Below are positions 13,889-64,000 of a DNA stretch of 64,000 nt, one piece after another. A program made the position numbers and the translations under genes. Positions within the stretch are counted from its first letter, which is position 1; every line of letters starts with the position of its first letter. The notes under the pieces were generated by a model that was given only the letters and a program-made list of their open reading frames with translations, was not told the DNA's origin and made no database searches. Origin of the DNA: Naegleria gruberi (taxonomy: Eukaryota); NCBI GenBank assembly GCA_000004985.1, contig GG738893.1; one strand, 5' to 3'.

Positions 13889-15445
13889 ATGAAGTTGACA
13901 TCTGCCATTGTCATGGCCATTTTGATGGCTGTGCTTTACGCTACATATGTTACCGCTTCCACAGATTCATTCGATGCATTGACAGATGCCATGGTCGAAG
14001 CAATCTATGCCAGAAGATTACCTAGATCTGGTGGAGGTGCCAGAGGTGGCTCAAGAGGAGGTGCCAGAGGAGGTGCTCGTGGAGGATCAAGAGGTGCTAG
14101 AGGAGGAGCCAGAGGTGGATCTCGTGGTGGTGCCAGAGGTGGTGCTAGAGGAGGTTCTCGTGGTGCCAGAGGTGGATCTAGAGGTGGTGCCAGAGGTGGT
14201 GCTAGAGGAGGAGCCAGAGGAGGATCAAGAGGTGGAAAAGCTGGTAAAGCTGGTAAAGGAGGTAGAGGTGGATCTAGAGGTGGTAAGGCCGGAAAGGGAG
14301 GAAAAGCTGGTAAAGGAGGAAAAGGAAAAGCTGGTAAGGGAGGAAAAGCTGGTAAAGGTGGAAAAGGAAAAGGTGGAAAAGCTGGTAAGGGAGGAAAAGG
14401 TAAAGGAAAAGGAGGTAAGGGTAAAGGTGGTAAAGGAAAAGGTGGAAAGGGAAAGAAGGATAAGAAGGGAAAGAAAGACAAGAAGGGAAAGAAGGATAAG
14501 AAAGATAAGAAGGGAAAGAAGGACAAGAAGGATAAGAATCAACAACAACAAGGTGGAGAACAAGGAGGTCAAGATGGTGGTCAACCAGGAGGTGAACAAC
14601 CACAACAACCAGAACAAGGAGGTGAACAACCACAACAACCTGAACAACCACAAGAACAACCACCAGTTGAACAACCACAACCTGAACAACCACAACAACC
14701 TGAACAAGCTCCAGTTGAACAACCACAACAACCTGAACAACAAGCTCAACCAGAACAAGCTCAACAACCTGAAGTTGCTCAACCACAAGCTCAAGAACAA
14801 CAACCACAAGCTCCAGTTGAACAAACTCAACAACCAGCTCAACAAGCTCCTGTTGAACAACAACCAATTGCTCAACAACCAGCTCAAGAACAAGCTCCAG
14901 TTGCTGCCCAACCTGTTCAAGAACAACCACAAGTTGCTCAACCTCAAGTTCAACAACCTGAAGTAGCTCAACAAGTTGCTCAAGAAGGTCCACAACCAAT
15001 TGCTCAACCTGATCAACCACAACCAGATCAACAAGTTGCTCAACAAAACCCAGACTTCCAACGTGCTCCACAATATGGTGACAAGCAAAGAATTGAATAC
15101 TTGAGAGGAATGATCAAGAAGAATATTTCCCCACAAGTTGCTCAACCAGAACAACAAGTTGCTCAACCTGAAGTAGCTCAACAAGAAGTTCCACAACCAA
15201 TTGCTCAACCTGATCAAGTTGCTCAACCAACTGAACAAACTCAACCAGCTAGAAGAACTAGAAAGTACAACAGAGGTGGTAACAGAAGAGGTACCAGAAG
15301 AAATCAATTCTCTCAAATTCCTGAATTTGGTAGATATTTCTTGGGTAATCAAGCTAAGGCTCAAAATGGTGATAACGATAGAATCAACTTTTTGAGAGGT
15401 TTGATTGATTTGCTCATTGCTCAAACTAAAGCTCAACAAAATTAA
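13889..15445 (+). CDS. Secreted low-complexity, charge-segregated repeat protein (RGG block, KGG block, KKD block, Q/P/E-rich block)
   Basis: 518-aa ORF starting with a hydrophobic signal peptide 'MKLTSAIVMAILMAVLYATYVTAS'. It then has about 15 'GG[AS]RGG' repeats, '(K[AG]GKGG)n', '(KKDKKG)n', a long 'QPEQPQQPEQ / VAQP(E/Q)' region, and two copies of a 'GD(K/N)xRI(E/N)(Y/F)LRG(M/L)I' motif. The ORFs overlapping it on both strands are repeat-shadow artefacts. Confidence 0.6.
   Translation: MKLTSAIVMAILMAVLYATYVTASTDSFDALTDAMVEAIYARRLPRSGGGARGGSRGGARGGARGGSRGARGGARGGSRGGARGGARGGSRGARGGSRGGARGGARGGARGGSRGGKAGKAGKGGRGGSRGGKAGKGGKAGKGGKGKAGKGGKAGKGGKGKGGKAGKGGKGKGKGGKGKGGKGKGGKGKKDKKGKKDKKGKKDKKDKKGKKDKKDKNQQQQGGEQGGQDGGQPGGEQPQQPEQGGEQPQQPEQPQEQPPVEQPQPEQPQQPEQAPVEQPQQPEQQAQPEQAQQPEVAQPQAQEQQPQAPVEQTQQPAQQAPVEQQPIAQQPAQEQAPVAAQPVQEQPQVAQPQVQQPEVAQQVAQEGPQPIAQPDQPQPDQQVAQQNPDFQRAPQYGDKQRIEYLRGMIKKNISPQVAQPEQQVAQPEVAQQEVPQPIAQPDQVAQPTEQTQPARRTRKYNRGGNRRGTRRNQFSQIPEFGRYFLGNQAKAQNGDNDRINFLRGLIDLLIAQTKAQQN
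14030..15250. repeat. Coding tandem repeats (about 24-27-nt RGG/KGG units, then 15-21-nt CAA/CCA-rich units) within gene 13889-15445
   Basis: Visible periodicity such as 'ggtgccagaggtggatctcgtggt...' and 'aagggaaagaaggataagaag'. Open reading frames appear in 5 of 6 frames across the region. Confidence 0.8.
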
Positions 15446-57039: not shown

Positions 57040-58353
57040 ATGCTTTCACCACACAACAACAATAAACCCTTCCAACAAAAAATTATTTCATTCATAGGAG
57101 ATGTACATTCGGGAAAAACAACACTTGTGGGTCGATTTGCTGATCCAGCTGAGAGACAAATTGCAAAGAATATGTTGGCATATCAGACCGATCGATTGGG
57201 AGCTTACAGAGTGTATGCATCTCATGTTTCCTCTCCTGAGCGAGAAGGGAGAATTAAAATTGCAATAACTCATAAACAATATAAAGAGGAAAATCAATTA
57301 ATGTCCCTATTGGATGTATCTACATCACGGAAGAAGAAAATGGACTGTTTGATGAAGGCTATTTGGCTGTCAAATATTTGTGTATTGGTTGTGGATGTAA
57401 CGGATGGAGTATTTGAAAGGGATTTTAATAATCCAATTGGAAATATAAGAACTCACTTACAAATGGCTGGAGCTGTTGGATTGACCAATTTGATTGTTTG
57501 TTTAACAAAATGTGATTTATTGCCAGAGTCTGAATTGAATTCAAGATTGGAGGAAATCAAATCAAAATTGAGTACTTTTTTATTGTGGAAAAATGTTCCT
57601 TTCATTCCAGTTTCATGTGTAAAGAATGAAAATATATTCACACCAATTGGTGATGAGTTTTCACAAGGAAAGTCACTCGAGTCTGTATTGAAAGAAATTA
57701 ATATTGAGCCACGGAAGGAATGGATTGAAAAACCTCTAATGATGGCTATATTGGACAAGTACAAAATTGCTGGCGTTGGAACAGTGGTGGCTGGAAAAAT
57801 AATTACTGGCAGAGTTCAAGTAGATCAACAAGTTTATTACAGAGATGATTATTCAAACCCATTGAGATCTATTGAAATTGCATTCGAGCCACGTAATGAA
57901 GCTATCTGTGGAGAATTTTGTGGAATCAATATCAAACATGTATCTGCGAGAGAGATTGAATCCCATTTCATAGTTCACGATCAGGCATACTTGGAGACTG
58001 AAAAACGAGCTGTGGAATCCTTCAGAGCCCTAATCAAGATTATGAATCAACCAAAGAATGGAATTAAGGTTGGATATACTTTCAAACTTTATCATTCTGT
58101 GACTAATCAATGTATTTGTAAAATAGAAGATATTATAGCCACTGTAAATCCAAAAACCAATAAGAAAATAGAAGCATATCCAAACAAACTCAAAAAAGGA
58201 GACTTTGTAGAAGTAAGATTACGACCAGTCATATCAAAAGAATCCAAAACTTGTTACCTGGAAACATTTGAACGAAATGAAACTCTTGGACGAATCATCT
58301 TAATGAATGGAAAGTTAATAATTGGAGTTGGAAAGGTATTAAAAATAAATTAA
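57040..58353 (+). CDS. eEF1A/EF-Tu-family GTPase-like protein with degenerate G3 motif
   Basis: 437-aa ORF. G1 is 'GDVHSGKTTLVGR'. Switch I is like 'EREGRIKIA'. G3 'DxxG' is replaced by 'LLDVSTSRK'. G4 is 'TKCD'. Domains II and III are well conserved: 'KPLMMAILDKYKIAGVGTVVAGKIITGRVQ' and 'LKKGDFVEVRLRP...LGRIILMNGKLIIGVGKV'. Confidence 0.7.
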   Translation: MLSPHNNNKPFQQKIISFIGDVHSGKTTLVGRFADPAERQIAKNMLAYQTDRLGAYRVYASHVSSPEREGRIKIAITHKQYKEENQLMSLLDVSTSRKKKMDCLMKAIWLSNICVLVVDVTDGVFERDFNNPIGNIRTHLQMAGAVGLTNLIVCLTKCDLLPESELNSRLEEIKSKLSTFLLWKNVPFIPVSCVKNENIFTPIGDEFSQGKSLESVLKEINIEPRKEWIEKPLMMAILDKYKIAGVGTVVAGKIITGRVQVDQQVYYRDDYSNPLRSIEIAFEPRNEAICGEFCGINIKHVSAREIESHFIVHDQAYLETEKRAVESFRALIKIMNQPKNGIKVGYTFKLYHSVTNQCICKIEDIIATVNPKTNKKIEAYPNKLKKGDFVEVRLRPVISKESKTCYLETFERNETLGRIILMNGKLIIGVGKVLKIN

Positions 58354-59563: not shown

Positions 59564-60934
59564 TTATTCTTCTAAAACAACAGTTTCATTAGCTGTTTCG
59601 TGATTTTTGCTGTGTTCTTCATTGAATACCATTTGCTTCTCAATAAGAGATTTGTAAATACCGTTTGGTAGTCTAATTAACTCTGAATGGTTACCTTTCT
59701 CTTCCAAAACACCTTTAACCAAAACACAAATGATATCTGAATTGATAATAGTTGTCAGTCTATGAGCAATACATATAGTAGTACGACCTTTCATCAGAAC
59801 ATCCAATGCTTGCTGAACCAATCTTTCAGATTCACTATCCAATGCAGAAGTTGCCTCATCTAATAAGAGAACTTTTGGGTTTTGCAAAAGAGCACGTGCA
59901 ATGGCAATACGTTGCTTTTGTCCACCAGATAAGGAAACACGCATAAACTTGGAATACTGATCCCATGGTGGCCTTTCCCTCAGCAACAGTTGTGCCACCA
60001 TACAGGAAACCCAATGTTACTGTTGCCCATGTAAGTCCAGCAGTAAAGGCAAGAAAAGGTCCATGAACAGACCCCTTAAAAACACCCTGCCTGTTAATCT
60101 TGTCCAAATCTTTTTGGAATCGATTCAATTCTGAATATTCTTGTGCCATGGAGCGAATAGTTTTCATTGAAGAAATGATTTCATTGGATACAGCAGAAGA
60201 ATTTTCAGTCAACTTGTTAATCCTCTTTGTAATAATTGTAGAGATTGTGGACATTACCATATGGGAAATAAAGGTCAAGGGTATCGTTGAGACTAGAATC
60301 AAAGACATCGTCCAATTAATGGTCAAAGAAATAACAAACCCAATCACAAACTGACTCAAGTCCTGGCAAAATATAGAGAGGTCTGTAGTGTAGACTTCTT
60401 GAATTTTTCCAATATCCTCAGAAAGAATGGATGTGATAGCTCCAATCTTTTTAATGTCAAAGAAACTCATCTCCTGTTTGGAGAGGGCATGCATGTATGC
60501 TTTTCTGAGAGATGTTCCTATTCTTGCATGTGATATTTGCAAGAAGAAATCCTGTAACAAGAATGCAACAGCACTACATGCTGATAGAATTCCCAACTTG
60601 ATGCAAACCTGTGAAACAACAAACTTGCCTTCCTCCACAGATTTGGCTCCAGCCAAGCTGTCAATTAATTCACCTAACATAACAATTAACATTCACATGT
60701 AAATGTAACCAACATACCTATGAAGACATTACACAGAATGGGGATTACACCATACCCAACAGCCCCAAGAATTCCAAACAACAGCAACAACAAGTTTCCA
60801 CCAAAAATTTGTAAAATTTTAAAGTGTGATAATGGAGAAACCTGTGGCTCTCGTTCATCCTTAAATTCAAATTCGTCTTCTTTTGGAGGCATTGTTTTTT
60901 TGATTCTGGTAAAATGATTTTCTTCCTCATTCAC
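59564..60934 (-). pseudogene. ABC-B half-transporter remnant: a complete 6-TM domain joined to the signature/Walker B/H-loop part of the NBD, with Walker A and Q-loop missing and a frame break
   Basis: Exon 1 is 60934..60718 ('MNEEENHFTRIKKTMPPKEDEFEFKDEREPQVSPLSHFKILQIFGG...'). A 44-nt intron (GTATGT...TGTTAG) follows. Exon 2 from 60673 encodes the TMD through '...[22 protein letters not shown]'. About 25 codons later, in another frame, comes '[37 protein letters not shown]...[10 protein letters not shown]'. No GxxGxGK(S/T) motif occurs in any frame between 59560 and 60100. Confidence 0.55.
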
Positions 60935-61123: not shown

Positions 61124-62536
61124 CTATTCCTCATCAGGTCCCAATTCTTCTTCAGCATTAAGTTCTTGGTAGCCCTCAACAAGACTTTCGAAATTTTCTG
61201 TCAATTCTGTTATCTCATCAAGTTCCATACCCTCAGAATGAAAATGATGTAACAATGATTTCATTGTTAATATTTCATTGGCTCCATGTTTGATGCGTTC
61301 GAGGGATGATTTTAGTCTAGTTGAATTGGATAACATGAATGCTGTAATGTGCATATTGAGTAAATTTGAATTACAAGAGTAGAGAGGTCTATGAAACACA
61401 GCCCCAACTTTAAGACCACTCGGATTCCAACTACAAAATTTAAGTGCCCTTTCGTCTTTCAATTTTCTTACTACCGTATTAATTGTTCGCGGTTCTACAT
61501 AACCTCTGTACAGTAGTGAACTGCACATGGTATAACCTTCAGAAGATTCAATAAAGGGACTGGCCAAGCAATCATATGTGAACATTTCTGTTCCATAGCC
61601 ATGTGGAACAGTTTTCATTGAGGAATGAATTGGCCCAAATGACGGATACAGAATGTTCATAACTGGATACGGAAAATTGTGTGTAAGATTTTGTAAATCC
61701 GTAGAAAGGGGTCCTTCAAATCTATTACAGGCTGTAACATTTGAAATAACCAAGGAAATGAGCTCATTCACACTATCCATTGATGAATAATGAAATTCTT
61801 TCTTGCACAAGTTCTCAATAGCTTTGTTTTCCATAAATATTTTTGCATCCCAACCATTAGTTGAATTTCCCATGTAGAGAAATGAATTCAAAGCCTCAAT
61901 TGGACCATTATCTCCTGCGTTTTCGAAGTCTGGGGAAATAGAAATAGCACATTTGTATGTCTTTGAATAAGATGTATAGATACTATCCATTAACAAGCTC
62001 ACAAAACCAGATCCTAATCCACCCCCAATTGAGCTAACTATCATGAAGGAAAATGGAGATTCACACTTTTCCACTAGGGACCTAATCCTTTCCATTGCAA
62101 TCTCCAATAATTTCTTTGAACGAGAAGAGTGTCTTCCATTTGCATAAGTATAAGAGGAAGAATCCAATACAGAGGAAGTTTCACTCACAAACAATGAATT
62201 ACTTTCCGAGCATTCACTTTCATGGTCTTGAATTAATTTCAATAAATTCTCTCCAGTTGAATCCGATAGTTCTGATATTGTCAAAATAGGTCTTTCCAAA
62301 TCAATAAACAATGTTCTAGGAACAAATTTTCCATCCTCCTTCTCTCTAAATACATTTAAATATTTCTCATCCTTATCTTGATCATTTTGATAATCCGAAT
62401 TAAATCGACGCCTCTTCTCTTCCTCTGTAAACTTATCAGGAAAAATACAATGCTCATGCTCTCTTAATAATTGTTCCCAAGCACTTAATCCAATTCTATT
62501 TCCAGCACCTCCAACCTGAATACAAATTACACTCAT
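61124..62536 (-). CDS. Divergent tubulin-superfamily protein (not canonical alpha, beta or gamma)
   Basis: 470-aa single ORF. The N-terminus 'MSVICIQVGGAGNRIGLSAWEQLLREHE' parallels 'REIITLQLGQCGNQIG...W..L..EHG'. 'FVPRTLFIDLERPILTI' parallels 'IPRAVLLDLEP'. The tubulin signature variant is 'SIGGGLGSGFVSLLMDSI' (GGGTGSG in canonical tubulins). It ends in an acidic C-terminal tail. Confidence 0.75.
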   Translation of the reverse strand: MSVICIQVGGAGNRIGLSAWEQLLREHEHCIFPDKFTEEEKRRRFNSDYQNDQDKDEKYLNVFREKEDGKFVPRTLFIDLERPILTISELSDSTGENLLKLIQDHESECSESNSLFVSETSSVLDSSSYTYANGRHSSRSKKLLEIAMERIRSLVEKCESPFSFMIVSSIGGGLGSGFVSLLMDSIYTSYSKTYKCAISISPDFENAGDNGPIEALNSFLYMGNSTNGWDAKIFMENKAIENLCKKEFHYSSMDSVNELISLVISNVTACNRFEGPLSTDLQNLTHNFPYPVMNILYPSFGPIHSSMKTVPHGYGTEMFTYDCLASPFIESSEGYTMCSSLLYRGYVEPRTINTVVRKLKDERALKFCSWNPSGLKVGAVFHRPLYSCNSNLLNMHITAFMLSNSTRLKSSLERIKHGANEILTMKSLLHHFHSEGMELDEITELTENFESLVEGYQELNAEEELGPDEE

Positions 62537-62798: not shown

Positions 62799-64000
62799 AT
62801 GATGTCGGATGAACAATTTATTCAAACTCAAGACTACAAGTCAGTTTTGAAAAAGATCAAAGATAGTCCATATTATAGAAATGCTGCTCAGGGAGATGAA
62901 GTATTGATGAGCAAATTGGCTCTCGTTCTCTCCGATAAACAAAAACTGAAGAATTTCTATTTGACTACTGATTGGGCACAAACGGTCATTAATGCTATTT
63001 CAACCTATTCGGAAACTTCTCAATCTACAGGGTTGGGAATTTCATCAACTTCTGGAGAGCCATCGTCAGGTAAAAAGGGAATTTTCGATGGAATTTCATC
63101 AAAGAGCGAACAAGGTGATATTGCAATTAAAGGTGTTACAACAGCACCAATTGATGTTACGGAAGATGATTCTGATGATGAAGAATTGGATGTGGATTAT
63201 TTAAATTCTCCAGAACATTTAGAAATTCAAAAATCTCTCATGAATCAAGATCGATTGAGAGTTAAAATTATTGTTTCAGAAATTTGTGAAAGCAAAGGAA
63301 AGAAGGCATTCAGACAAATTATGAGTCCTTTACTTGCAAAATCAAGCTTTTTACCAGAATTGGGAATGTTTCACTCGGCTATTTTGATTGGACCTTGGAA
63401 ATTTGAGTGGATTGATGCCAGTTTGTGTGTTCCTAAAAAGTTGGTAGCTTCTGCTGCCCTTGTTGCATGTGATTTAACAGATGAACTTTCAGTTACTAAT
63501 TGTGGCATTAATGCTATGGTTGATAATATTGCAGAAGTAATTATCAAGTGGAATACCACTATGGAATACAAGAATAGAGGAGGAGATGGAAAGAAGAGTG
63601 GAAATTGTCAAGATTTTGTGGACGATATTTTGGATGCTATTGGAGTGGATAAGAAGGTTATTTATCAAGGAGCTATGGGTGCTTATTTCTCAAGATTGAA
63701 GTTGAAAGGAAAGGGTGGTATGAAATTCTTCTTGGAAGATGGTTTCCGTAAAAAGTTTAACATTCCTTCAAATCAAAAGCATGTCAAATTTACAAATCAC
63801 ATTCAATTAGATCAATTTGTACAACAATTATATGATATTGATCCATTATTTGATGAGAATTACCCAAGTGAATTCAAGTTGCTCAAGTCATTTGATCGTG
63901 CCTTTTGGTTAAGACATTTGGCAAAGCCATCCATTTCCAAATGGGAACCTCTCAGAGAAGAAACACAAGGATTTGATGGAGTTGAATTCCATTTGAAATG
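62799..64000 (+). CDS. NlpC/P60-superfamily (LRAT/PPPDE-like permuted papain fold) protein, partial; it continues beyond the window end
   Basis: The frame is open from ATG 62799 to 64000 and is not in the ORF list, presumably because no stop falls inside the window. It contains 'FHSAILIGPWKFEWID' (a His block) followed by 'GNCQDFVDDILDAIGV' (NCxxF Cys block), in the H...C order typical of LRAT/PPPDE families. Confidence 0.5.
   Translation, partial: MMSDEQFIQTQDYKSVLKKIKDSPYYRNAAQGDEVLMSKLALVLSDKQKLKNFYLTTDWAQTVINAISTYSETSQSTGLGISSTSGEPSSGKKGIFDGISSKSEQGDIAIKGVTTAPIDVTEDDSDDEELDVDYLNSPEHLEIQKSLMNQDRLRVKIIVSEICESKGKKAFRQIMSPLLAKSSFLPELGMFHSAILIGPWKFEWIDASLCVPKKLVASAALVACDLTDELSVTNCGINAMVDNIAEVIIKWNTTMEYKNRGGDGKKSGNCQDFVDDILDAIGVDKKVIYQGAMGAYFSRLKLKGKGGMKFFLEDGFRKKFNIPSNQKHVKFTNHIQLDQFVQQLYDIDPLFDENYPSEFKLLKSFDRAFWLRHLAKPSISKWEPLREETQGFDGVEFHLK

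What the first reader, a model, noticed from the sequence alone, without database searches (positions are those of the whole stretch)
61124..62536. Highly divergent tubulin paralog with altered GTP-binding signature (GGGLGSG)
The length (470 aa), N-terminal GTP-binding loop, 'VPR...DLE' block, signature loop, internal 'W.P' block and acidic tail all align positionally to tubulins. The motifs are far from the alpha/beta/gamma consensus: QVGGAGNRIG for GQCGNQIG, GGGLGSG for GGGTGSG. This could be a delta/epsilon/zeta-class or lineage-specific cryptic tubulin. Its presence would be informative about centriole or flagellum biology, or about a novel cytoskeletal role if the organism is aflagellate.
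Basis: partly seen in the sequence, partly recalled or inferred. Interest (0 to 1): 0.55.

Follow-up and report, generated by a model that had tools for sequence, protein, structure and literature searches.

The report
Very divergent Naegleria alpha-tubulin paralog
This is a real, intact gene of the amoeba Naegleria gruberi, already in databases as "alpha-tubulin"; it encodes an extremely derived alpha-tubulin relative that has lost the residue needed to trigger GTP hydrolysis, so it is probably a specialised non-dynamic tubulin, not a new tubulin class.

Summary
The window is Naegleria gruberi, and the protein is identical to XP_002673115.1 / D2VS63, annotated "alpha-tubulin".

It is not delta, epsilon, gamma or misato. 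It scores 173-192 bits against alpha-tubulins, 115 against beta, 91-103 against epsilon, 88 against gamma and 49-57 against delta. It groups with alpha in 89% of NJ bootstraps and has the alpha-type long S9-S10 loop.

It is nonetheless extreme: about 29% identical to alpha, with only 14% of alpha-diagnostic residues kept. Pocket residues are changed (Q11G, N101Y, T145L, Y224M). The catalytic Glu254 is Asn, the same change as the engineered hydrolysis-dead E254N tubulin (PDB 7SJA).

Two environmental fragments (64-68% identical) share the altered T1 and T3 loops and a conserved insertion. dN/dS against one of them is 0.20, so the gene is under selection. That fragment also carries a frameshifting deletion.

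Published work already mentions seven highly divergent "bonus" alpha-tubulins in this genome, and this gene is probably one of them. I found no functional or expression data. Interest is low to moderate.

The parts
61124..62536 (-). Complete single-exon CDS, 470 aa, identical to XP_002673115.1 / EFC40371.1 / UniProt D2VS63 'alpha-tubulin [Naegleria gruberi]'
62489..62518 (-). T1 nucleotide loop QVGGAGNRIG (canonical alpha GQAGVQIG). Q11->G and Q15->R; the alpha-type Ala12 is kept. The same loop is found in both environmental relatives.
62354..62452 (-). Expanded, charged H1-S2 loop (residues 29-61, about 11 residues longer than alpha). Its length varies among relatives. AF2 pLDDT is below 50 for residues 38-54.
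62162..62284 (-). Insertions after H2 (residues 85-125; +13 and +5 relative to alpha). The core TGENLLKLIQDHE is conserved in all three family members. AF2 confidence is low.
62135..62161 (-). T3 loop SSSYTYANG. The universal Asn-Asn of (A/G)NN(Y/W)A is replaced by Y-T, and by (Y/C/H)-T across the relatives.
62006..62026 (-). T4 tubulin signature GGGLGSG. Thr145->Leu174. Among 82 divergent-tubulin hits, Leu is not among the six most common residues at this site (T 66, S 5, C 3, A 2, gap 1, M 1).
61916..62134 (-). Residues 135-207 (H3 to the start of T5, including T4). This segment is absent, with a frameshift, from the environmental relative L001.
61664..61714 (-). T7 loop / H8, GPLSTDLQNLTHNFPYP. 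Asn249->Ser278, Asp251 kept, catalytic Glu254->Asn283.
61319..61411 (-). S9-S10 region with the long alpha-type loop; beta and epsilon references are 12 alignment columns shorter here
61127..61159 (-). Short acidic C-terminal tail NAEEELGPDEE with no terminal Tyr

Best explanation
The ORF is a functional, lineage-restricted and extremely derived offshoot of the alpha-tubulin family in Naegleria gruberi. It is most likely one of the 'bonus' highly divergent alpha-tubulins already catalogued for this genome. It keeps the tubulin fold and the alpha-type architecture. Its nucleotide pocket is remodelled at positions that are otherwise near-universal (Q11G, Q15R, N101Y/N102T, T145L, Y224M). The T7/H8 catalytic Glu254, which in alpha-tubulin triggers hydrolysis of the GTP on the neighbouring beta subunit, is Asn. 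Two loops (H1-S2 and H2-S3), which by established tubulin structure make lateral and lumenal contacts, carry about 30 extra residues. Shown here: identity, alpha affinity, the substitutions, conservation of the altered loops in two relatives, and purifying selection. Inferred mechanism: it acts as a hydrolysis-dead, non-dynamic alpha-like subunit. It could be a stable partner of a beta-like tubulin, a cap, or a component of a specialised non-canonical polymer. It is not a building block of ordinary dynamic microtubules.
For: Identity and class:
- 100% match to the N. gruberi protein annotated 'alpha-tubulin'.
- The best 60 PDB sequence hits are all alpha, E about 1e-56.
- All named top hits among 1.84 billion representatives are alpha.
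- phmmer bits: alpha 173-192, beta 115, epsilon 91-103, gamma 88, delta 49-57.
- NJ bootstrap 89% for the alpha side of the split.
- The top 50 Foldseek PDB hits are A/C chains of alpha-beta tubulin entries, TM about 0.80.
- Alpha-length S9-S10 loop and Ala12.

Functional gene:
- Open 470-codon frame, chance about 5e-16.
- dN/dS 0.20, bootstrap 95% interval 0.12-0.33, over 174 codons against the relative L001.
- The altered T1 and T3 loops and the H2-S3 insertion are shared by P0023/L001 and P0322.

Mechanism:
- E254->N283.
- Engineered human alpha-E254N (PDB 7SJA, the top PDB hit) does not hydrolyse GTP and grows without catastrophes (PMC8764682).
- The T1, T3 and T4 loops and both insertions have AF2 pLDDT below 50, while the rest of the fold is modelled with confidence.

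Literature: the divergent N. gruberi tubulins have been judged unlikely to assemble typical microtubules (PMC9081340).
Against: - Only 9 of 65 alpha-diagnostic residues are kept (14%, against 4-9% for the other classes and 33-35% for other divergent alpha paralogs). At 29% identity it is further from alpha than alpha is from beta. Alpha ancestry therefore rests on overall similarity, one indel and an NJ tree with few beta and gamma references and no zeta reference.
- No expression, localisation or biochemical data were found.
- The one relative with DNA available has a frameshifting deletion of about 221 nt that removes the T4 loop. This suggests the gene is dispensable in at least one lineage, unless it is an assembly error.
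- No ortholog was seen in any annotated proteome of another Naegleria species.
- Whether it still binds GTP, pairs with a beta-tubulin or polymerises is untested.
- The low AF2 confidence in the nucleotide loops may simply reflect the shallow 28-sequence alignment.
Confidence: 0.6

Rival explanations
1. It belongs to, or founds, a tubulin class outside alpha, either delta/epsilon/zeta or a new 'cryptic' class. Its apparent alpha affinity would then be an artefact of extreme divergence.
For: It is only about 29% identical to alpha. Only 14% of alpha-diagnostic sites are kept. Its position within the alpha group is unresolved and it has the longest branch there. No zeta reference was available.
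Against: It has a 60-75 bit advantage for alpha over every other class. NJ bootstrap support for the alpha side is 89%, and there was no attraction to the long delta branch. It has the alpha-type S9-S10 loop and Ala12. N. gruberi is reported to have its own conserved single gamma, delta and epsilon genes (PMC9081340). A broad published survey placed all such divergent protist tubulins within alpha or beta (PMC4202323).
Confidence: 0.07
2. It is a decaying, functionless duplicate: a young pseudogene whose reading frame happens still to be open.
For: Several universally conserved nucleotide-pocket residues and the catalytic Glu are lost. The related copy in L001 carries a frameshifting deletion of the core GTPase region. 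The adjacent ABC-transporter gene in the window also looks broken. No expression evidence was found.
Against: dN/dS is 0.20, well below 1. The open frame has a chance probability of about 5e-16 in AT-rich DNA. The 'degenerate' T1 and T3 loops and the insertion are conserved across three diverged sequences, which points to selection rather than drift. The start codon position is conserved in L001.
Confidence: 0.1
3. It is an ordinary polymerising alpha isotype used in normal dynamic microtubules, for example one of the mitotic or flagellar alpha-tubulins of Naegleria.
For: It is annotated 'alpha-tubulin'. It has the full-length tubulin fold. Naegleria is known to use divergent tubulins for mitosis (PMC9036621).
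Against: The mitotic alpha-tubulins are 57-58% identical to human alpha and the flagellar ones 79-85% (PMC9036621); this protein is about 29%. It lacks catalytic Glu254, and the E254N change abolishes hydrolysis and catastrophes in human tubulin. About 30 extra residues sit in the lateral-contact loops.
Confidence: 0.08
4. It is a non-polymerising tubulin-fold protein with a regulatory or sequestering role, for example binding beta-tubulin, tubulin cofactors or microtubule ends without joining a lattice.
For: It shows purifying selection combined with a remodelled nucleotide pocket, a dead catalytic site and enlarged lateral loops. The C-terminal two-thirds of the fold is better preserved.
Against: There is no direct evidence for this. 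It overlaps with the best explanation and differs only in whether any polymer is formed.
Confidence: 0.15

Closest known systems
Canonical alpha-tubulin (e.g. human TUBA1B)
   Same: Both Pfam tubulin domains and the same fold (TM about 0.8). Best similarity of any class. Alpha-length S9-S10 loop and Ala12 in T1. D69/E71, E183, N206, N228 and D251 are retained, and the C-terminal tail is acidic.
   Different: About 29% identity. Substitutions Q11G, Q15R, N101Y/N102T, T145L, Y224M, N249S and E254N. About 11 extra residues in H1-S2 and 18 after H2, and a 6-residue deletion before S9. No C-terminal Tyr.
Engineered hydrolysis-dead human alpha-E254N tubulin (PDB 7SJA)
   Same: Carries Asn at the catalytic Glu254 position. 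It was the single best PDB sequence hit.
   Different: The engineered protein is otherwise wild type and polymerises into stable microtubules. Here the substitution is natural and comes with many other changes, and polymerisation is untested.
Other highly divergent ('bonus') N. gruberi alpha-tubulins, e.g. XP_002670562.1 (P0048)
   Same: Same genome and same annotation. They are divergent alpha-like proteins of unknown role, and Y224M is shared (PMC9081340).
   Different: P0048 is much less derived: about 400 bits to alpha, 35% of alpha-diagnostic sites, and an intact NN, Thr145 and Glu254. It is only 28% identical to this protein by BLASTP (32% in the phmmer listing), so the two are not recent duplicates.
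Naegleria mitotic alpha-tubulins (alpha6 type; Velle et al. 2022)
   Same: Divergent alpha-tubulins specific to Heterolobosea.
   Different: Those are 57-58% identical to human alpha, have orthologs in N. fowleri and Acrasis, and are expressed in mitosis (PMC9036621). This protein is about 29% identical, and no ortholog was found outside two close environmental relatives.
Divergent ciliate tubulins (Paramecium 'theta/iota/kappa', reclassified as alpha or beta)
   Same: Lineage-specific, long-branch alpha- or beta-derived paralogs. Some have lost GTP-loop motifs and have been proposed to be structural rather than polymerisation-competent (PMC4202323). Signature-loop Thr substitutions recur in such proteins.
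   Different: Independent origin in a different supergroup. The specific T1, T3 and T4 changes and the insertions are not shared.
Delta and epsilon tubulins
   Same: Comparable overall degree of divergence from alpha, beta and gamma: the query keeps 45 of 67 positions invariant across the four classes, and human delta keeps 44.
   Different: Much lower similarity (49-103 bits against 173-192 for alpha). They separate in the tree. The references used keep Q11, N101/N102 and T145.

Membership tests
Tubulin/FtsZ superfamily, eukaryotic tubulin | Tubulin GTPase domain plus tubulin C-terminal domain, both above the curated thresholds | tested here: met
   PF00091 100.6 bits (cut-off 33); PF03953 41.8 bits (cut-off 26.6)
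Tubulin/FtsZ superfamily, eukaryotic tubulin | Tubulin fold | tested here: met
   AF2 pTM 0.75. The top 50 Foldseek hits are tubulin chains, TM about 0.80, E about 1e-33.
Alpha-tubulin | More similar to alpha than to any other class | tested here: met
   alpha 173-192 bits; beta 115; epsilon 91-103; gamma 88; delta 49-57. PDB best 60 all alpha. Named top hits in the exhaustive search are alpha.
Alpha-tubulin | Groups with alpha in a phylogeny | tested here: met
   NJ with Kimura distance, 36 sequences, 422 columns, 300 bootstraps: 89% for {alpha + alpha-like + query} against the rest. Caveats: distance method only, one beta and one gamma reference, no zeta.
Alpha-tubulin | Alpha-type long S9-S10 loop and Ala (not Cys) at position 12 of T1 | tested here: met
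   Alignment
Alpha-tubulin | Retention of alpha-diagnostic residues | tested here: inconclusive
   9 of 65 (14%), against 4-9% for the other classes; other divergent alphas keep 33-35%
Alpha-tubulin | Catalytic Glu254 in H8 that activates GTP hydrolysis on beta | tested here: not met
   Asn283; E254N is hydrolysis-dead in human tubulin
Alpha-tubulin | Canonical N-site GTP contacts (Q11, N101, T145 of GGGTGSG, Y224) | tested here: not met
   G10, Y129, L174, M253. D69, E71, E183, N206 and N228 are kept.
Alpha-tubulin | Forms a heterodimer with beta-tubulin and assembles into microtubules | not testable with these tools
   Needs biochemistry or localisation
Delta / epsilon tubulin | Best similarity to, and clustering with, named delta or epsilon references | tested here: not met
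   references (vertebrate only)
Zeta tubulin | Clustering with zeta references | not tested
   No zeta reference sequence could be obtained
Gamma tubulin | Best similarity to, and clustering with, gamma | tested here: not met
   88 bits against human TUBG1 (validated against PDB 7qj0); separate in the tree
Misato | Misato segment II tubulin-like domain above threshold | tested here: not met
   PF10644 12.7 bits against a cut-off of 26.5, E 0.16
Naegleria mitotic alpha-tubulins | About 57-58% identity to human alpha; orthologs in N. fowleri and Acrasis | tested here: not met
   28.8% identity to human TUBA1B. No such orthologs. Definition from PMC9036621.
N. gruberi 'bonus' highly divergent alpha-tubulins (Fritz-Laylin 2010 Fig. 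S4B, as described by Fulton 2022) | Curated N. gruberi alpha-like gene with strong sequence divergence plus gaps and additions | tested here: inconclusive
   It fits the description and carries the curated name 'alpha-tubulin'. I could not map it to a JGI ID or find it by accession or motif in the held supplements.

The most novel reading that the evidence does not exclude
The gene, together with its two environmental relatives, defines a small Naegleria-restricted subfamily of alpha-derived 'pseudo-catalytic' tubulins. In this subfamily a remodelled nucleotide pocket (GGAGNR / YTYA / GGGLGSG), a natural E254N-type dead catalytic site and a conserved lumen-side insertion are all maintained by selection. 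Such a protein could act as a built-in stabiliser or cap, or as a subunit of a non-dynamic tubulin polymer, in a cell that otherwise has no interphase microtubules.
Probability: 0.25. Interest if true: 0.55.

Novelty: already known. Interest (0 to 1): 0.3.

Why it matters
Naegleria is the organism behind the multi-tubulin hypothesis, and the role of its very divergent "bonus" tubulins is explicitly listed as an open question (PMC9081340). This gene is a concrete candidate. It is under purifying selection yet naturally carries the E254N change that experimentalists use to make hydrolysis-dead microtubules. If it is expressed and incorporated into a structure, it would be a natural example of a cell using a catalytically dead alpha-like tubulin. 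As it stands, it is an already annotated gene from a known category, and it adds nothing to what is known about the organism's centriole or flagellum repertoire.

Tried and rejected
- **Delta/epsilon/gamma/misato membership:** tested and rejected.
- **More orthologs in JGI metagenome contigs:** a peptide-pattern scan and a degenerate DNA pattern for ICIQVGGAGNRIG both found nothing.
- **Word-index search limitation:** the first word-index protein search missed the 68%-identical fragment P0023, which the exhaustive search found. The absence of N. fowleri or N. lovaniensis orthologs in word-index searches is therefore weak evidence on its own. The exhaustive search also showed none.
- **Expression or ID mapping:** no paper holds the accessions. 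The 2024 bioRxiv paper has no supplements held. The Velle 2022 supplements contain 26 N. gruberi tubulin names, but our accession and motifs are not in the held (truncated) files.
- **The look-up of encoding contigs:** no record for P0001 or P0322.
- **Synteny between L001 and the window:** the 5' neighbours differ, and tblastx found no hit.
- **AFDB fold search:** the library was unavailable.
- **L001 gap as an intron in our gene:** rejected, because the segment encodes the conserved H3-T4-H4 tubulin core.

Full report
**Observation.** The window has an uninterrupted 470-codon ORF at 61124-62536 on the minus strand, ATG to TAG. An in-frame stop lies 60 nt upstream of the ATG. With the window's base composition (about 35% GC), the chance of 470 open codons is about 5e-16. 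Pfam finds the tubulin GTPase domain (100.6 bits) and the tubulin C-terminal domain (41.8 bits), both above their curated cut-offs. The misato segment II domain scores 12.7 bits against a cut-off of 26.5.

**Source and prior annotation.** The protein is 100% identical to XP_002673115.1 / EFC40371.1 / UniProt D2VS63, named "alpha-tubulin [Naegleria gruberi]", on a 337-kb scaffold. The window is therefore N. gruberi. [quoted passage not shown] Fulton's review, citing the genome paper's Fig. [quoted passage not shown] It also reports single conserved gamma, delta and epsilon genes (PMC9081340). This gene fits that description. I could not map it to a JGI identifier, and no held paper or supplement contains its accessions or motifs.

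**Which class.**
- HMMER against all PDB sequences returns alpha-tubulins for all of the best 60 hits, at E about 1e-56.
- An exhaustive HMMER search of 1.84 billion representatives gives 2666 hits. Every named top hit is an alpha-tubulin, at 28-32% identity.
- I assembled named references. Human beta and gamma were validated as identical to PDB 6i2i_B and 7qj0_U.
- Against these references, phmmer gives alpha 173-192 bits, another divergent N. gruberi alpha (P0048) 141, beta 115, epsilon 91-103, gamma 88 and delta 49-57.
- A neighbour-joining tree (36 sequences, 422 columns, 300 bootstraps) puts the query on the alpha side of the alpha versus beta/gamma/delta/epsilon split with 89% support. 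The query has the longest branch in that group, and its position within the group is unresolved.
- The alignment shows the alpha-type long S9-S10 loop and Ala at T1 position 12, where the beta, gamma, delta and epsilon references have Cys.
- The AlphaFold2 model (pTM 0.75) matches A/C chains of alpha-beta tubulin entries in all top 50 Foldseek hits, with TM about 0.80.
- Against this, only 9 of 65 alpha-diagnostic residues are retained (14%), compared with 4-9% for the other classes and 33-35% for other divergent alpha paralogs. At about 29% identity, the protein is further from alpha than alpha is from beta (my background figure is roughly 40%).
- My conclusion is that it is an alpha-derived paralog at about 0.8-0.85 confidence. 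Delta, epsilon, gamma and misato are rejected, and zeta is untested.

**Anatomy** (human TUBA1B numbering, then query residue).
- Nucleotide-pocket positions kept: G10, A12, G13, D69, E71, S140, G143, G144, G146, S147, G148, E183, N186, N206 and N228.
- Pocket positions changed: Q11->G10, Q15->R14, N101/N102->Y129/T130, T145->L174, Y224->M253, and a T5 loop that is two residues longer and rewritten.
- Among 82 divergent tubulins from the search, the T145 position reads T 66, S 5, C 3, A 2, M 1. Leu is not among the common residues there.
- On the opposite longitudinal face, N249->S278, D251 is kept, and the catalytic E254->N283.
- The best PDB hit, 7sja_A, is the engineered human alpha-E254N. 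Those microtubules do not hydrolyse GTP and grow without catastrophes (PMC8764682).
- Relative to alpha, about 11 residues are added in the H1-S2 loop and 13 + 5 after H2, and 6 are deleted before S9.
- By established tubulin structure (my background knowledge), the H1-S2 and H2-S3 loops face the lumen and make lateral contacts with the neighbouring M-loop.
- AF2 confidence is below 50 in exactly T1 (10-12), the two insertions (38-54, 82-128) and T4 (170-174). It is 70-88 across the intermediate and C-terminal domains. The 28-sequence alignment was shallow, so this is only suggestive.
- Overall the query keeps 45 of 67 positions that are invariant across the alpha, beta, gamma and epsilon references. 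That is similar to human delta (44) and within the range of other divergent paralogs (35-66).

**Relatives and selection.**
- The exhaustive search found one closer relative, P0023. It lies on a 1-kb ENA metagenome contig (L001) and is 77-78% identical in DNA and 65-70% in protein.
- Nei-Gojobori dN/dS over 174 aligned codons is 0.20 (bootstrap 95% interval 0.12-0.33), with dS 0.86. This indicates purifying selection over most of the divergence.
- L001 lacks a net 221 nt or so, corresponding to residues 135-207 (H3 to T5, including the signature loop), and it changes frame. Either that copy is a pseudogene or the contig is misassembled.
- Its 5' neighbour differs from the window's 5' neighbour, so there is no synteny on that side.
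- A profile search then found P0322, a 153-aa N-terminal fragment that is 64% identical and reads through the L001 breakpoint.
- All three sequences share GGAG(N/S)RIG in T1, (Y/C/H)TYA in place of NNYA in T3, and the insertion core TGENL(L/V)K.IQD(H/Y)E.
- The unusual loops are therefore conserved, derived characters of a small subfamily and not random decay.
- No ortholog from an annotated Naegleria proteome appeared in any search. Two scans of JGI metagenome contigs were also empty.

**Interpretation.**
- Shown: this is a real, selected, alpha-affiliated tubulin-fold gene with a remodelled nucleotide pocket, a dead catalytic residue and enlarged lateral and lumenal loops.
- Inferred: it cannot activate GTP hydrolysis on a partner beta subunit and probably cannot make canonical lateral contacts. 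It is therefore more likely to be a stable, non-dynamic alpha-like subunit, cap or partner than a building block of dynamic microtubules.
- Whether it binds GTP, dimerises or polymerises is unknown, and I put the specific mechanism at about 0.35.
- The rivals are a new or non-alpha class, a decaying relic, an ordinary isotype, and a non-polymerising regulator. They are listed with their evidence in the rivals section.

**Novelty and score.** The sequence is already public and named alpha-tubulin, and the category of highly divergent Naegleria tubulins is published. I therefore rate it "already known". What this analysis adds is the natural E254N-type substitution, the conserved altered T1 and T3 loops and insertion in two environmental relatives, omega of about 0.2, and the broken copy in one relative. 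Interest is 0.3. A specialist would not be surprised that the gene exists, but it is a tractable candidate for the open question of what Naegleria's "bonus" tubulins do.

Noticed in passing
window 59564-60934 (-): The ABC half-transporter next to the tubulin gene looks broken. The ABC_membrane domain (PF00664, 1e-44) ends near 59924. A different frame matches only the last 31 positions of the ABC_tran profile (LSGGQ and Walker B) from about 59935. That leaves no room for Walker A or the Q-loop. It is a candidate internal deletion plus frameshift (pseudogene), or an unusual gene structure.
   Followed up: partly
window ~62810-64000 (+): A long open frame (MMSDEQFIQTQDYKS...) is transcribed divergently from the tubulin gene and runs off the window end, so the ORF listing did not report it. 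It shares a 5' intergenic region of about 270 bp with the tubulin gene. Its identity was not determined.
   Followed up: no
L001 1-1028 (ENA ERZ929261, contig k127_94317): The environmental relative of the tubulin gene has a frameshifting deletion of about 221 nt that removes H3 to T5. Its divergent 5' neighbour (MSFIDLPQELFQIICEF..., possibly F-box-like on my reading) is unrelated to the window's 5' neighbour.
   Followed up: partly
window 57040-58353 (+): A 437-aa translational-GTPase-like ORF matches GTP_EFTU, EFTU domain 2 and the eEF1A C-terminal domain only weakly (about 65 bits each for the first and third). This suggests a divergent eEF1A/HBS1/eRF3-family paralog.
   Followed up: no
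window 13889-15445 (both strands): Four overlapping ORFs of 265-518 aa lie on both strands, in a 2-kb bin with raised GC (0.42) and strong AT skew (0.30). This is probably a low-complexity or repeat-rich coding region.
   Followed up: no
method note (vs 18): The word-index homology search missed a 68%-identical 148-aa fragment that the exhaustive HMMER search found. Negative results from the word-index tool should not be taken as proof that close relatives are absent.
   Followed up: yes
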